A stretch of 64,000 bases of DNA from Escherichia coli (lineage in GTDB: Bacteria > Pseudomonadota > Gammaproteobacteria > Enterobacterales > Enterobacteriaceae), in the NCBI RefSeq assembly GCF_003334815.1, contig NZ_QOWO01000002.1; one strand, written 5' to 3'. The notes under the pieces are model-generated. The model was not told where the DNA came from, searched no databases, and saw only the letters and a program-made list of their open reading frames with translations. This document shows positions 29,467 to 33,640 of this stretch, piece after piece; position 1 is the first letter of the stretch, and every line of letters starts with the position of its first letter. Both the position numbers and the translations under genes were made by a program.

Positions 29467-30366
29467 TTACGCAGAGAAAAAGGCGATGAGGATCGGCACT
29501 AACAGGCTAAGAATAAAACCGTGAACAATTGCCGCCGGGACCATATCCAGCCCGCCAGTACGTTGAAGAACGGGCAGGGTGAAATCCATTGATGTGGCAC
29601 CGCATAAGCCCAGTGCAGTAGAGCGGCTGCGGCGAATCAGCCCAGGGATCAACATAATAGCAATCAGTTCACGGGCCAGATCATTAAAAAACGCCGCGCT
29701 CCCGATTACCGGACCAAAAGATTCGGTCAATAAAATACCGGAAAGAGAATACCAGCCGAAACCGGAGGCCATTGCCAGCGCGGTATTGATGGGGAGATCA
29801 AGAATAAAGGCGTTAATTAAACCACCAATTAATGAACTGACAACCACCACCACGGCGACAATCATTCCCCGGCGATTAAGGACAATCTGCTTTAAGGTCA
29901 TGCCATTATTGCGCAACTGAATACCAACGAGGAAAAGTAGCAAAATTAACGTGTATTCACTGGCTTCGGTCGCGTGTTGTAAGAAAGCCAGTCCACTTAG
30001 ACCAATGGCAAAACCAATCACTACTACGCCGCACAGTTTTAGCGACTCCAGCGCCATCGCAATACGCGACGGGAGTTTTTCTTGCTGATGGTGGTTGCGC
30101 CACGGCAGGCCTCGCTCCAGCCACATCAGGGCGGCAATATTACACAGTAAAATAACGGTAATACTGACGGCAGAATAATGCAGAATCGCCAACAGGTTAC
30201 TGGCGAGGTTATCGAGAAACGCCAGACTGATACCCATAAAAAAGAGAATAAGGTAAACCATCCAGCTTAATAGCTGATTAATAACTTTTAACGCAGCTTG
30301 TTGGCGAAGCGGAATGAGGTAACCCACAATCAGGGGAACCAGAATGATTAACAGCCCAGAAAACAT
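29467..30366 (-). CDS. lysO: Lysine exporter LysO (YbjE)
   Basis: 299-aa membrane ORF from ATG 30366 (MFSGLLIILVPLIVGYL...); ORF-track start 30414 is an extension. Confidence 0.9.
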   Translation of the reverse strand: MFSGLLIILVPLIVGYLIPLRQQAALKVINQLLSWMVYLILFFMGISLAFLDNLASNLLAILHYSAVSITVILLCNIAALMWLERGLPWRNHHQQEKLPSRIAMALESLKLCGVVVIGFAIGLSGLAFLQHATEASEYTLILLLFLVGIQLRNNGMTLKQIVLNRRGMIVAVVVVVSSLIGGLINAFILDLPINTALAMASGFGWYSLSGILLTESFGPVIGSAAFFNDLARELIAIMLIPGLIRRSRSTALGLCGATSMDFTLPVLQRTGGLDMVPAAIVHGFILSLLVPILIAFFSA

Positions 30367-30539
30367 GAAAACCCAGTCCTTGCAAAGATGAAGTCGAAAT
30401 GCGCGATGACACACTACTGAAAGCGGAAGGACGAGTAAAGTTGCAATTAAAAGGAAATGTTATGCATAAGGAGCAGTAGAGTATTCGTTTTCATTTAAAG
30501 ATATTCTTGCGCTTTAATTACAAACTGCACCGATGTTGG

Positions 30540-30760
30540 TGGCGTCAAAATCGCCGAGGCGTTCCCTGAAGGCCGGGGCAGCCCACATGGATGTGGGCTG
30601 AGGGCGCGTTTTACAGGGATGTTACCTCGCGCCCGACCCGGTAGCCGTAAGGGATAAGTCGAGGGCACCGCGCAGCGGCGATTTTGTTCGCCAGAGCCCG
30701 GGGGTGCAGGGGGCGGCGGCGATTGGCCGCCCCCTGCGCGCTCCTTGCGCCAGTGGCAAT
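30540..30760. other. GC-rich hairpin-dense element in lysO-aqpZ intergenic region (possible structured leader or boxC-like repeat)
   Basis: Perfect 12-bp inverted repeat GCAGGGGGCGGC/GCCGCCCCCTGC (30706-30737), palindrome CAGCCCACAT/ATGTGGGCTG (30579-30600), stem GGGCGCG/CGCGCCC (30602-30634); sharply higher GC than flanks. Confidence 0.4.
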
Positions 30761-30820
30761 ATGTTGCTTAGCTCATGAAAGGAGCGCAACAAGATGATGA
30801 ATCAACATATAACAACATCT

Positions 30821-30850
30821 TAAAAAAAGGCCTGACATTACGCCAGGCCT
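30821..30850 (-). terminator. Intrinsic terminator of aqpZ
   Basis: On minus strand hairpin AGGCCTGGCG...CAGGCCT followed by TTTTTTTA. Confidence 0.65.
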
Positions 30851-30860
30851 TCTGCGTTAA

Positions 30861-31556
30861 TTAATCACGCTTTTCCAGCAGGGTCCGGTAAATCAGACCA
30901 CCGATAATGCCGCCGACAATTGGCACCACCCAGAAGAACCACAGTTGTTCTAATGCCCAGCCGCCCTGGAAGATAGCAACCGCGGTGCTGCGCGCCGGGT
31001 TAACAGAAGTGTTAGTCACCGGAATACTAATTAAGTGAATCAGGGTTAAGGCCAGACCAATAGCGATCGGCGCAAAACCTGCCGGCGCGAATTTGTCGGT
31101 TGCGCCGTGGATCACCAACAGGAAACCTGCACTCAATACCAGTTCAACTACCAGCGCGGAAAGCATGGAATAACCGCCTGGTGAATGCTCGCCATAACCG
31201 TTAGAAGCAAAACCGCTGGCTGCCGCGTCAAAACCCGTTTTACCACTGGCAATTAAATACAGCAGCGCCGCTGCAACAATACCGCCGACAACCTGGGCAA
31301 TTACGTAGCCAACGACTTCTTTTGCCGGAAAACGTCCGCCAGCCCATAAACCAATAGTGACCGCCGGGTTAAAATGACCACCAGAAATATGACCAACAGC
31401 AAAGGCCATCGTCAGAACGGTCAGACCGAACGCCAACGCCACGCCGGCAAAACCAATGCCTAATTCCGGGAAGCCTGCGGCCAGTACAGCACTACCACAG
31501 CCACCAAAAACAAGCCAGAAAGTACCAAAACATTCAGCTGCTAATTTTCTGAACAT
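30861..31556 (-). CDS. aqpZ: Aquaporin Z
   Basis: 231-aa ORF from ATG 31556 ([19 protein letters not shown]...); two NPA motifs ([14 protein letters not shown]). Confidence 0.95.
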
Positions 31557-31981: not shown

Positions 31982-33640
31982 ATGATTCTTGAGCGCGTTG
32001 AAATTGTGGGTTTTCGCGGTATCAACCGTTTGTCGTTGATGCTGGAACAAAACAACGTCCTGATTGGGGAAAACGCGTGGGGTAAATCCAGCTTGCTGGA
32101 CGCCTTAACTCTGCTGCTATCGCCAGAATCAGATCTCTACCATTTTGAGCGCGACGATTTCTGGTTCCCGCCGGGAGATATCAACGGGCGAGAACATCAT
32201 CTGCATATTATTTTGACCTTCCGCGAATCGCTGCCAGGCCGACATCGGGTTCGCCGTTATCGGCCGCTGGAAGCGTGCTGGACGCCATGCACCGATGGCT
32301 ATCACCGTATTTTTTATCGTCTGGAAGGGGAGAGTGCGGAAGACGGCAGCGTGATGACACTGCGCAGTTTTCTCGATAAAGACGGACATCCGATTGATGT
32401 CGAGGATATTAACGATCAGGCACGCCATCTGGTGCGTTTAATGCCGGTGCTGCGCTTGCGTGATGCCCGTTTTATGCGCCGTATTCGTAACGGCACGGTG
32501 CCAAATGTCCCTAATGTGGAAGTCACCGCGCGCCAGCTCGATTTCCTCGCCCGTGAGTTATCCTCACATCCGCAAAATCTCTCTGATGGGCAGATTCGTC
32601 AGGGACTTTCCGCAATGGTACAGCTGCTTGAGCATTATTTCTCTGAGCAGGGGGCCGGACAGGCGCGATATCGTTTAATGCGGCGGCGAGCCAGCAATGA
32701 GCAACGAAGCTGGCGCTATCTGGATATCATCAACCGGATGATTGACCGACCTGGTGGGCGCTCGTATCGGGTTATTTTGCTCGGCCTATTTGCTACTTTG
32801 TTGCAGGCAAAAGGCACATTGCGACTGGATAAAGACGCCCGTCCATTGTTGCTGATCGAAGATCCAGAAACCCGTTTACACCCCATTATGCTTTCAGTTG
32901 CCTGGCATCTGTTGAATCTTCTGCCATTGCAGCGCATTGCCACCACCAACTCGGGTGAGTTGCTTTCGTTAACGCCGGTAGAGCATGTTTGCCGACTGGT
33001 ACGTGAGTCCTCGCGCGTTGCCGCCTGGCGTCTGGGGCCGAGTGGCTTGAGTACCGAAGATAGCCGACGCATATCCTTTCACATTCGTTTTAACCGTCCG
33101 TCATCGCTGTTTGCACGCTGCTGGTTGCTGGTGGAAGGGGAAACGGAAACCTGGGTTATCAATGAACTGGCGCGTCAGTGCGGACATCATTTTGATGCCG
33201 AAGGGATCAAGGTCATTGAGTTTGCCCAGTCCGGGCTAAAGCCACTGGTTAAATTTGCCCGCCGAATGGGGATTGAATGGCATGTACTGGTCGATGGCGA
33301 TGAAGCAGGGAAGAAATATGCCGCTACGGTACGCAGCCTGTTGAATAACGATCGGGAAGCCGAACGAGAACATTTAACGGCGTTACCGGCGCTGGATATG
33401 GAACATTTTATGTATCGCCAGGGATTTTCCGATGTGTTCCACCGCATGGCGCAAATCCCGGAAAATGTACCGATGAATCTACGCAAAATTATCTCGAAAG
33501 CGATCCATCGCTCTTCCAAACCCGATCTTGCCATTGAAGTGGCAATGGAGGCAGGACGTCGTGGTGTGGACTCCGTACCGACGCTGCTGAAAAAAATGTT
33601 CTCACGCGTGCTGTGGCTGGCGCGCGGTCGCGCGGATTAA
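31982..33640 (+). CDS. ybjD: OLD-family ATP-dependent endonuclease YbjD (N-terminal ABC-like ATPase + C-terminal TOPRIM)
   Basis: 552-aa ORF; Walker A GENAWGKSS, Walker B LLLIEDPE, TOPRIM-like LVEGETE and HVLVDGDEAG motifs. Confidence 0.9.
   Translation: MILERVEIVGFRGINRLSLMLEQNNVLIGENAWGKSSLLDALTLLLSPESDLYHFERDDFWFPPGDINGREHHLHIILTFRESLPGRHRVRRYRPLEACWTPCTDGYHRIFYRLEGESAEDGSVMTLRSFLDKDGHPIDVEDINDQARHLVRLMPVLRLRDARFMRRIRNGTVPNVPNVEVTARQLDFLARELSSHPQNLSDGQIRQGLSAMVQLLEHYFSEQGAGQARYRLMRRRASNEQRSWRYLDIINRMIDRPGGRSYRVILLGLFATLLQAKGTLRLDKDARPLLLIEDPETRLHPIMLSVAWHLLNLLPLQRIATTNSGELLSLTPVEHVCRLVRESSRVAAWRLGPSGLSTEDSRRISFHIRFNRPSSLFARCWLLVEGETETWVINELARQCGHHFDAEGIKVIEFAQSGLKPLVKFARRMGIEWHVLVDGDEAGKKYAATVRSLLNNDREAEREHLTALPALDMEHFMYRQGFSDVFHRMAQIPENVPMNLRKIISKAIHRSSKPDLAIEVAMEAGRRGVDSVPTLLKKMFSRVLWLARGRAD

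What the first reader, a model, noticed from the sequence alone, without database searches (positions are those of the whole stretch)
30794..30823. Nine-codon ORF with strong Shine-Dalgarno just downstream of the GC-rich block
AAAGGAG (30778-30784) is followed 9 nt later by ATG ATG AAT CAA CAT ATA ACA ACA TCT TAA (MMNQHITTS) on the plus strand, ending just before the aqpZ terminator hairpin. It could be a leader-peptide-like element or chance, and no plus-strand promoter is evident.
Basis: seen in the sequence. Interest (0 to 1): 0.2.

Follow-up and report, generated by a model that had tools for sequence, protein, structure and literature searches.

The report
Incidental mini-ORF at TRIP1a/RRS repeat edge
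The nine-codon reading frame is really there, but its ribosome-binding motif is the conserved end of a known E. coli repeat (TRIP1a, also called RRS-lysO) and the frame is not conserved, so it is most likely an ordinary, weakly translated by-product and not a regulatory leader peptide.

Summary
The string is confirmed: AAAGGAG at 30778-30784, a 9-nt spacer, then ATG ATG AAT CAA CAT ATA ACA ACA TCT TAA at 30794-30823, ending 5 nt before the aqpZ terminator stem. The window here is identical to E. coli K-12 MG1655.

The "GC-rich block" is a published repeat: TRIP1a (Rudd 1999; Li 2024), also called RRS-lysO. RRS-lysO is a G-quadruplex "replication risk sequence" that acts at the DNA level (Pham 2024).

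The "Shine-Dalgarno" is the right-terminal motif GGAGCGCAAC of that repeat family. It is invariant in all eight aligned copies, whatever lies next to them. The ATG sits 3 nt beyond this terminus. At other copies and alleles the sequence that follows gives ORFs of 2, 3, 5, 7, 9, 12 or 27 codons, or no start codon at all.

At this locus the frame reads:
- MMNQHITTS in 66% of 5,426 complete E. coli genomes;
- MINQHITTY in E. albertii;
- MNQYI in another allele;
- nothing where the repeat is inverted, or in Citrobacter, Klebsiella-type and Atlantibacter loci.

Published retapamulin profiling in BL21 lists this start at 2.2 RPM (about 14 reads), so weak initiation probably happens. Nothing lies downstream on the plus strand to regulate. 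Verdict: known element, incidental non-conserved ORF, low interest.

The parts
30794..30823 (+). Nine-codon ORF MMNQHITTS plus its stop codon (the finding)
   Evidence: Read directly. Identical in K-12. Listed as a Ribo-RET putative start in BL21 at 2.22 RPM. Not annotated in NC_000913.3 or in any RefSeq row listed for these searches.
30778..30784 (+). AAAGGAG SD-like motif; part of the conserved right-terminal motif (A/C)AGGAGCGCAAC of the TRIP1/RRS repeats
   Evidence: GGAGCGCAAC is invariant in 8 aligned copies from the loci of TRIP1a, b, c and d. It is also present in most Escherichia and Pseudocitrobacter copies; one has GGAGTGCAAC and one copy is cut off by a contig end. In the consensus fold the GGAG lies in the loop just 5' of the stem arm GCGCA.
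30525..30790 (+). TRIP1a repeat (K-12 915016-915281), which is the 'GC-rich block'
   Evidence: Coordinates from Li et al. 2024, converted with the window-to-K-12 offset 884491. Multi-copy in E. coli: median 3 places per genome. Highly structured: z = -7.2 on the plus strand.
30534..30800 (+). 'Extended RRS-lysO' as cloned by Pham et al. (168-434 bp upstream of lysO); the core RRS is 30534-30755
   Evidence: with the lysO ATG at window 30366. The extended fragment includes the SD and the first 7 nt of the ORF.
30700..30719 (+). G-quadruplex motif GGGGGTGCAGGGGGCGGCGG of the RRS
   Evidence: Motif quoted and located in the sequence. At 0.915 Mb the plus strand is the lagging-strand template, as that paper states.
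30581..30621 (+). Two hairpin loops, ACAUGGAUGU and UACAGGGAUGU (TwoAYGGAY-like core)
   Evidence: Rfam RF01731 match at 30545-30684: 30.6 bits against a gathering score of 43, E = 0.05. Stems show compensatory changes while the loops stay fixed.
30822..30849 (-). aqpZ intrinsic terminator (stem 30829-30849, U-tract 30822-30828 on the minus strand)
   Evidence: Read and called the apparent aqpZ terminator. It was not picked up by the simple scan. It is absent from alleles that carry the inverted repeat.

Best explanation
The ORF is an incidental junction product at the aqpZ-proximal edge of the TRIP1a / RRS-lysO repeat.

Shown:
- The AAAGGAG belongs to the repeat's conserved terminal motif (A/C)AGGAGCGCAAC. 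That motif is kept at every TRIP1 locus examined, because it is part of the folded repeat (it abuts the terminal stem TGCGC/GCGCA) and not because it serves a gene.
- The ATG lies 3 nt past the conserved terminus, in a poorly conserved flank.
- The nine codons are whatever that flank happens to spell before the A-run of the aqpZ terminator supplies a TAA.

Inferred:
- A low-level plus-strand transcript, antisense to lysO and aqpZ, crosses the repeat.
- Ribosomes occasionally initiate on the SD-like motif plus AUG, which would account for the weak Ribo-RET peak in BL21.
- They translate nine codons and terminate. The peptide and the act of translating it have no selected function.

The biologically meaningful object here is the repeat itself. 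[quoted passage not shown]
For: (1) Identity of the block. The region is 100% identical to K-12. TRIP1a is 915016-915281. RRS-lysO is 168-389/434 bp upstream of lysO, and TRIP1 and RRS are stated to be the same element.

(2) The SD is a repeat motif. GGAGCGCAAC is invariant in 8 copies at four loci and in most further copies from Escherichia species and Pseudocitrobacter.

(3) What follows the motif differs:
- MMNQHITTS (a, K-12)
- a 27-aa ORF running antisense into dusC (c, O157)
- MRD (c, K-12)
- ML (Pseudocitrobacter)
- MLNTHIELKISL or MLSSQIE (inverted a)
- MNQYI (another forward allele)
- no start codon (b, d and the L033 copy); in b the two ATGs are CTG.

(4) Population and phylogeny.
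- The 81-nt SD+ORF+terminator segment is in 3,574 of 5,426 complete E. coli genomes.
- 442 genomes carry the repeat inverted, without the ORF body and without the K-12 terminator hairpin.
- E. albertii has MINQHITTY, and both nucleotide changes are non-synonymous.
- Citrobacter freundii, a Klebsiella-type locus and Atlantibacter keep ybjD-aqpZ-lysO-hcp synteny but have 268-, 115- and 123-bp spacers with no repeat and no ORF.

(5) No regulatory target: the plus strand downstream is antisense aqpZ.

(6) An SD+ATG of this kind is expected about 7.5 times per window by chance.

(7) Weak initiation. The BL21 Ribo-RET peak is 2.22 RPM, against 51.3 RPM for the neighbouring ybjD start. The same study concludes that most such sORFs are not under purifying selection.
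Against: A retapamulin peak does exist, so the site is not silent.

Several independent TRIP1 contexts have an ATG 6-12 nt after the GGAG: a forward, a inverted, c in both orientations, and Pseudocitrobacter. That is more than one would naively expect. The forward and inverted alleles at this locus can also be aligned codon for codon over M-x-N-x-H-I. This leaves some room for selection on initiation as such.

In the consensus fold the GGAG is left unpaired in a loop, which is compatible with an accessible ribosome-binding site.

I could not see Table S3 of Stringer et al. (start plus stop evidence) or any MG1655 data set.
Confidence: 0.8

Rival explanations
1. Functional micro-ORF or leader. 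Translation of the nine codons on a plus-strand transcript ends 5 nt before the hairpin that is also the aqpZ terminator. A terminating ribosome would melt the hairpin's 5' arm and allow antisense read-through into aqpZ, or otherwise tune convergent transcription. That would make it an attenuator-like switch.
For: The geometry fits: the stop is at 30821-30823 and the stem starts at 30829. There is a weak Ribo-RET start peak. The GGAG is unpaired in the consensus fold.
Against: There is no co-directional downstream gene. On the plus strand the hairpin is followed by TTCTGCGTT, a poor U-tract, so there is little termination to relieve. The peptide has no regulatory codon run. The ORF is 5 codons, altered, or absent in other alleles and species, and a third of E. 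coli genomes lack it. Inverted alleles lack both the ORF and the hairpin while aqpZ and lysO remain in place.
Confidence: 0.04
2. The GGAG is a functional RNA motif of a transcribed TRIP1 RNA of the TwoAYGGAY class. It could be a further GGA site for CsrA alongside the two GGA-loop hairpins, or an exposed ribosome-docking end. The ORF body itself would be irrelevant.
For: TwoAYGGAY matches: 30.6 bits here, 29.6-33.1 bits at three other copies, and 49.2 bits (above the gathering score of 43) for a diverged paralogue next to the Pseudocitrobacter copy. The loops ACAUGGAUGU and UACAGGGAUGU resemble the CsrA SELEX consensus (my recollection of it: RUACARGGAUGU). TwoAYGGAY was proposed to bind CsrA. 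There are compensatory stem changes with fixed loops, and the fold is better on the sense strand: -111.5 against -96.7 kcal/mol, with 6 against 17 broken pair cells.
Against: No transcript or promoter has been shown. E. coli CsrA CLIP tables report nothing for ybjE or dusC, although those tables are gene-centred. The structural signal is equally explained by folding of single-stranded DNA on the lagging-strand template, which is the published mechanism. The diverged Pseudocitrobacter paralogue has TATTGCGCAA instead of GGAGCGCAA, so the GGAG is not a family-wide feature.
Confidence: 0.1
3. The ORF is not translated at all. The BL21 Ribo-RET call is a false positive and the ORF is a pure sequence coincidence.
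For: The list of putative starts has an estimated FDR of 11.7%, and this peak is near the bottom of the range: 2.22 RPM, about 14 reads at 0.159 RPM per read. No promoter was found. The repeat is strongly folded.
Against: The peak sits at the expected 14-nt offset from an ATG that has a strong SD at good spacing. A second plus-strand peak 450 nt upstream (1.43 RPM) suggests that a plus-strand transcript exists.
Confidence: 0.06

Closest known systems
TRIP1 repeats (Rudd 1999; Li et al. 2024), also called Replication Risk Sequences RRS-lysO / RRS-dusC (Pham et al., NAR 2024)
   Same: Window 30525-30790 is TRIP1a itself, with identical sequence and coordinates. The SD-like motif is the repeat's conserved terminus, and the 'extended RRS' fragment used experimentally (30534-30800) contains the SD and the first ATG.
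   Different: The ORF body (30801-30823) lies outside the repeat as defined. None of the three TRIP1/RRS papers I read describes a coding or ribosome-binding feature.
Pervasively translated, non-conserved sORFs of E. coli (Stringer, Smith, Mangano and Wade 2021; Ribo-RET / Ribo-Api)
   Same: It is very short and intergenic, has a weak retapamulin start peak, shows no sign of purifying selection, and is lineage-restricted. This exact ORF is a row in their Table S1.
   Different: I could not verify that it is among their 397 'novel ORFs' with both start and stop evidence, because Table S3 was not available.
Transcription-attenuation leader peptides (thrL, trpL, pheL, etc.)
   Same: A short ORF with a strong SD that ends just before a terminator hairpin.
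   Different: There is no downstream co-directional operon, no regulatory codon run and no alternative antiterminator pairing. The hairpin belongs to the convergent gene aqpZ. The ORF is not conserved.
TwoAYGGAY RNA motif (Rfam RF01731; Weinberg 2010; CsrA-binding proposal by Gardner and Eldai 2015)
   Same: The left half of TRIP1a has the same layout: an outer stem enclosing two hairpins with GGA-containing loops. A diverged neighbouring paralogue in Pseudocitrobacter scores above the family threshold.
   Different: The E. coli copies score below the gathering threshold. The second loop is AGGGAU or AAGGAC, not AYGGAY. TRIP1 has an additional G4/GC-hairpin domain and a published DNA-level role. 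The mini-ORF is not part of the motif.

Membership tests
Leader peptide / transcription attenuator | ORF lies upstream of, and is co-directional with, the gene(s) it regulates | tested here: not met
   Downstream on the plus strand is antisense aqpZ (30861-31556, minus strand). The next plus-strand gene, ybjD, starts at 31982.
Leader peptide / transcription attenuator | Intrinsic terminator on the same strand directly after the ORF, with an alternative antiterminator pairing | tested here: not met
   The hairpin at 30829-30849 has its U-tract on the minus strand. On the plus strand it is followed by TTCTGCGTT. The scan reported no terminator-like site. No alternative pairing is evident in the folds.
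Leader peptide / transcription attenuator | Run of codons for the sensed amino acid, or a known arrest motif | tested here: not met
   MMNQHITTS has only two adjacent Thr codons. I did not run a library search for arrest peptides.
Leader peptide / transcription attenuator | Conservation of the frame in related species | tested here: not met
   MINQHITTY in E. albertii; MNQYI in another allele; absent from inverted alleles and from Citrobacter, Klebsiella-type and Atlantibacter loci.
TRIP1 / RRS repeat | Sequence identity with the published TRIP1a / RRS-lysO coordinates | tested here: met
   The window is identical to K-12.
TRIP1 / RRS repeat | Several copies per E. coli genome at fixed intergenic loci (aqpZ/lysO, dusC/yohP, putP/efeU, alx/sstT) | tested here: met
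TRIP1 / RRS repeat | G4 motif GGGGGTGCAGGGGGCGGCGG on the sense strand | tested here: met
   Present at 30700-30719 on the plus strand.
TRIP1 / RRS repeat | Causes post-replication gaps and RecA/SSB loading | not testable with these tools
   This is an experimental result of Pham et al..
TwoAYGGAY RNA (RF01731) | Covariance-model score at or above the gathering threshold (43 bits) | tested here: not met
   30.6 bits here and 29.6-33.1 bits for three other copies. Only a diverged paralogue in Pseudocitrobacter reaches 49.2 bits.
TwoAYGGAY RNA (RF01731) | Two hairpins with AYGGAY terminal loops | tested here: inconclusive
   The first loop, AUGGAU, is invariant wherever that hairpin is present. 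The second is AGGGAU, AAGGAC or A-GGAC.
Experimentally supported small protein gene | Ribosome start-site peak with retapamulin or Onc112 | tested here: met
   From the literature: BL21 IERF at 920003 (+), 2.22 RPM, ATG at 919989. The signal is weak, and the start list has an FDR of 11.7%.
Experimentally supported small protein gene | Matching stop-codon peak, tagged-protein detection, or annotation | not testable with these tools
   Table S3 was truncated in the held copy and the other papers are not held. The ORF is not annotated in NC_000913.3 or in the RefSeq rows listed.

The most novel reading that the evidence does not exclude
The TRIP1/RRS sense strand is also expressed as a structured RNA of the TwoAYGGAY class, and the conserved 3' end (exposed GGAG plus a nearby AUG) is a real ribosome- or CsrA-docking site. 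Ribosome loading on the terminal micro-ORF, or CsrA binding to the GGA loops, would then modulate RNA, R-loop or G4 formation at the repeat. That would link translation or carbon-storage signalling to the repeat's effect on replication and chromosome topology at the Ter macrodomain borders. In this reading the ORF's sequence is irrelevant but its start is functional.
Probability: 0.05. Interest if true: 0.55.

Novelty: already known. Interest (0 to 1): 0.1.

Why it matters
It matters little for the ORF itself. The result removes a candidate leader peptide or small protein from consideration and shows why it looks convincing: a strong SD-like motif that is really the conserved end of a repeat.

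More generally, it is a cautionary example for small-ORF calling. Repeat termini can carry SD-like sequences that seed short, weakly translated, non-selected ORFs at each insertion site.

A by-product is that three separate literatures appear to describe the same family of elements: TRIP1 (1999, 2024), RRS (2024) and the gamma-proteobacterial TwoAYGGAY motif (2010, 2015). This may help people working on RRS function.

Tried and rejected
- Empty-site search. A query made of the two flanks joined without the repeat found no E. coli genome with an unoccupied site. The ancestral state had to be inferred from Citrobacter and other genera.

- Ribosome-profiling sources. The published versions of Stringer 2022, Weaver 2019 and Meydan 2019 are not held. 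The Weaver preprint has no supplements held. Stringer Table S3 is truncated. Only the Ribo-RET start list could be used.

- CsrA CLIP-seq supplements (Potts 2017). There was nothing for ybjE or dusC, and no hit for aqpZ, yohP or TRIP1. The tables are gene-centred, so this is weak negative evidence.

- Promoter/terminator scan of 30300-31000. It found nothing on either strand, not even the obvious aqpZ terminator, so it is uninformative.

- The 19-mer scan of species-representative genomes. It returned mostly chance matches; the three Megasphaera loci gave no BLAST match beyond the 19-mer. Only Escherichia species, Pseudocitrobacter and a few tiny contigs that look like contamination are real TRIP1.

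- The anti-SD idea. I considered that the SD is sequestered by GCGCTCCTT (30738-30746). The alignment-level fold instead pairs CUCCU with GGGGG and closes the terminal hairpin with TGCGC/GCGCA, supported by one compensatory change in L045. I did not rely on the anti-SD idea.

- The 29-aa ORF at 30775-30864 in another frame. It has no SD and runs into aqpZ antisense, so I did not pursue it.

Full report
**1. Observation**

The sequence is as described.
- AAAGGAG is at 30778-30784, followed by a 9-nt spacer.
- The ORF is ATG ATG AAT CAA CAT ATA ACA ACA TCT TAA at 30794-30823.
- The stop codon overlaps the A-run 30822-30828. On the minus strand this A-run is the U-tract of the aqpZ terminator, whose stem is at 30829-30849. 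The aqpZ stop codon ends at 30861.

The surrounding genes are hcp, lysO (ybjE) and aqpZ on the minus strand, and ybjD on the plus strand. The region is base-for-base identical to E. coli K-12 MG1655, with K-12 coordinate = window + 884491. The ORF is therefore at 915285-915314.

No feature is annotated between lysO and aqpZ in NC_000913.3, nor under the match in any RefSeq genome row I saw.

As a pattern it is not unusual. AGGAG-N5-10-ATG occurs 15 times in the window against 7.5 +/- 2.7 in shuffles. Eight sense codons in a row are more likely than not.

**2. What the GC-rich block is**

A 501-nt query around the site matched every one of 5,426 complete E. coli genomes, at a median of 3 places per genome and up to 9. 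The repeated part is window ~30499-30801. A second copy lies between yohP and dusC.

The literature identifies this as the TRIP1 repeat family.
- TRIP1a is K-12 915016-915281, which is window 30525-30790.
- TRIP1b lies at putP/efeU and TRIP1c at dusC/yohP. TRIP1d (alx/sstT) and TRIP1e (copA/ybaP) occur in other strains.
- The function was unknown apart from mediating rearrangements (Li et al. 2024, PMC10888264).

The same elements are the "Replication Risk Sequences" RRS-lysO and RRS-dusC of Pham et al. (NAR 2024, PMC11194060).
- They are GC-rich repeats about 650 kb either side of dif.
- Their G4 motif GGGGGTGCAGGGGGCGGCGG (window 30700-30719, plus strand) lies on the lagging-strand template.
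- It stalls polymerases, triggers post-replication gaps with RecA/SSB loading, and affects genome-wide supercoiling.
- At least one RRS is needed unless a 200-kb region is amplified.

Their core RRS-lysO (168-389 bp upstream of lysO) is window 30534-30755. Their "extended" fragment (168-434 bp) is 30534-30800, which contains the SD and the first ATG.

**3. The SD belongs to the repeat, and the ORF body does not**

I aligned eight copies: a forward, a inverted, another forward a allele, two deleted forms, c in both orientations, and d.
- GGAGCGCAAC is invariant in all eight.
- Similarity decays immediately afterwards.

What follows the motif differs between copies and alleles.

| Copy or allele | What follows GGAGCGCAAC |
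|---|---|
| a, K-12 | MMNQHITTS |
| c, O157 orientation | a 27-aa ORF that runs antisense into the dusC coding end, so its conservation is borrowed |
| c, K-12 orientation | MRD |
| Pseudocitrobacter | ML |
| a inverted (facing lysO) | MLNTHIELKISL or MLSSQIE |
| another forward a allele | MNQYI |
| b, d and the L033 copy | no start codon; in b both ATGs are CTG |

A diverged paralogue next to the Pseudocitrobacter copy keeps GCGCAA but has TATT in place of GGAG.

In the RNAalifold consensus of 18 copies, the terminal hairpin is closed by TGCGC/GCGCA. One compensatory G-C to A-U change in L045 supports this stem. The GGAG sits in the loop immediately 5' of the 3' arm.

The motif is therefore conserved as part of the folded repeat. 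It is not conserved as the ribosome-binding site of a conserved gene.

**4. Conservation of the frame**

Within E. coli:
- The 81-nt SD+ORF+terminator segment is present at >=95% identity in 3,574 of 5,426 complete genomes, or 66%.
- 442 genomes have the repeat inverted at this locus. These include O157:H7. They lack the ORF body and also lack the K-12-type aqpZ hairpin.
- Other alleles have internal deletions of the repeat, or the MNQYI variant.

Across Escherichia:
- Escherichia sp. E1V33 has the identical ORF.
- E. albertii has MINQHITTY, and both nucleotide differences are non-synonymous.

Across genera:
- AqpZ homologues were traced to contigs with conserved ybjD-aqpZ-lysO-hcp synteny.
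- The aqpZ-lysO spacer is 268 bp in Citrobacter freundii, where an ERIC-like element (my own reading of the sequence) sits in place of TRIP1. It is 115 bp in a Klebsiella-type locus and 123 bp in Atlantibacter.
- None of these loci has TRIP1, the SD or the ORF.
- Comparison with Citrobacter indicates that roughly 30464-30818 is an insertion relative to the ancestral spacer.

A 19-mer scan of 100,044 species-representative genomes found true TRIP1 only in Escherichia species and Pseudocitrobacter. A few tiny contigs with matches look like contamination.

**5. Ribosome data**

Table S1 of Stringer, Smith, Mangano and Wade (bioRxiv 10.1101/2021.07.02.450978) lists a BL21 Ribo-RET peak:
- position 920003 (+), 2.22 RPM, 14 nt downstream of ATG 919989;
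- stop codon TAA at 920018, ATGATGAATCAACATATAACAACATCTTAA, MMNQHITTS*.

The neighbouring rows fix the locus. The ybjD start follows 1,187 nt later at 51.3 RPM. An antisense-lysO start lies 450 nt earlier at 1.43 RPM.

Coverage values are multiples of 0.159 RPM, so 2.22 RPM is about 14 reads. The list of 7,936 putative starts has an estimated FDR of 11.7%.

The authors conclude that most such sORFs are not under purifying selection. I could not see Table S3 (start plus stop evidence) or any MG1655 data set.

So weak initiation is likely, and function is not indicated.

**6. Mechanism**

The best-supported account:
- The repeat contributes an SD-like motif.
- The flank contributes an ATG at good spacing.
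- The A-run of the convergent terminator contributes the stop.
- A low-level plus-strand transcript allows occasional initiation. This is inferred from the two weak plus-strand Ribo-RET peaks, since no promoter was found.

There is nothing downstream on that strand to regulate. On the plus strand the hairpin has a poor U-tract. The leader-peptide reading therefore fails on target, terminator, codon content and conservation.

Residual doubt comes from two things. An ATG recurs 6-12 nt after the GGAG in several contexts. And the GGAG is unpaired in the consensus fold.

**7. Side finding on the repeat**

The left half of TRIP1a matches Rfam TwoAYGGAY (RF01731).
- The score is 30.6 bits here, against a gathering score of 43.
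- Three other copies score 29.6-33.1 bits.
- A diverged paralogue lying head-to-head with the Pseudocitrobacter copy scores 49.2 bits, above threshold.

The hairpin stems show compensatory substitutions while the GGA loops stay fixed. The fold is better on the G4/sense strand: -111.5 against -96.7 kcal/mol, with 6 against 17 broken pair cells.

TwoAYGGAY was proposed to bind CsrA. E. coli CLIP tables gave no support for that here.

The structural signal fits folding of the single-stranded lagging-strand template, which is the published RRS mechanism, as well as it fits an RNA. None of the seven TwoAYGGAY papers listed is a TRIP1/RRS paper, and neither of the two papers listed for TRIP1 appears among those seven.

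**8. Verdict**

- The element it abuts is already known, and the ORF's start is already in a published start-site list.
- Interest is low.

Noticed in passing
window 30545-30684 (+); L034 2218-2281 (+) and 1854-2135 (-): The TRIP1/RRS repeat looks like a gamma-proteobacterial relative of the Rfam TwoAYGGAY motif. E. coli copies score 29.6-33 bits, below the threshold of 43. A diverged paralogue lying head-to-head with the Pseudocitrobacter faecalis copy scores 49.2 bits. None of the seven TwoAYGGAY papers listed is a TRIP1/RRS paper, and neither of the two papers listed for TRIP1 appears among them.
   Followed up: partly
window 30581-30590, 30611-30621, ~30648-30657, 30778-30784 (+): Four conserved GGA motifs lie on the sense strand. 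Two of them sit in hairpin loops that closely match the CsrA SELEX consensus (as I recall it, RUACARGGAUGU). CsrA CLIP tables gave no signal for the neighbouring genes.
   Followed up: partly
L003 2501-2804 versus L007 916-1187; L009/L010/L013 versus window 30499-30801: TRIP1a and TRIP1c each occur in both orientations between the same flanking genes in different E. coli lineages. In the two O157:H7 genomes examined (one locus each), both repeats are flipped relative to K-12, which would put the G4 on the leading-strand template. The flanks of the two a alleles look only roughly similar by eye, which suggests old alleles and not a recent flip. Pham et al. report that artificially inverted RRS no longer give gap peaks.
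   Followed up: partly
L009 1580-1634, L010, L013 (inverted-repeat alleles): Alleles with the inverted repeat have no K-12-type aqpZ terminator hairpin. aqpZ would then read directly into the sense strand of the repeat, which may itself act as the 3' end or terminator.
   Followed up: no
L010 745-1104: aqpZ is annotated as a pseudogene (internal stop) in E. coli O157:H7 strain F8092B.
   Followed up: no
window 30344-30391 (+), antisense to the lysO start: The same Ribo-RET table lists a 15-codon plus-strand ORF (MINSPENMKTQSLQR, 1.43 RPM) overlapping the lysO start codon in antisense. This hints at a plus-strand transcript that begins inside or upstream of the lysO 5' end and may run through the repeat.
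   Followed up: no
L107 2197-2464 (Citrobacter freundii aqpZ-lysO spacer): Citrobacter carries what looks like an ERIC/IRU-type palindromic element at the position where Escherichia has TRIP1a, so this spacer seems to be a recurrent landing site for repeats. The ERIC identification is by eye and was not tested.
   Followed up: no
Genome-contig scan: Pham et al. describe RRS as highly conserved among enterobacteria. My exact 19-mer scan found it only in Escherichia species and Pseudocitrobacter, and the syntenic spacer in Citrobacter, a Klebsiella-type locus and Atlantibacter lacks it. Diverged copies could have been missed by an exact-match scan.
   Followed up: partly
L005 (strain S1-KEN-05-A), L011 (GF130), L103: Natural internal deletions of the repeat remove one or both GGA-loop hairpins while keeping both termini. 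This resembles the partial form TRIP1b.
   Followed up: no
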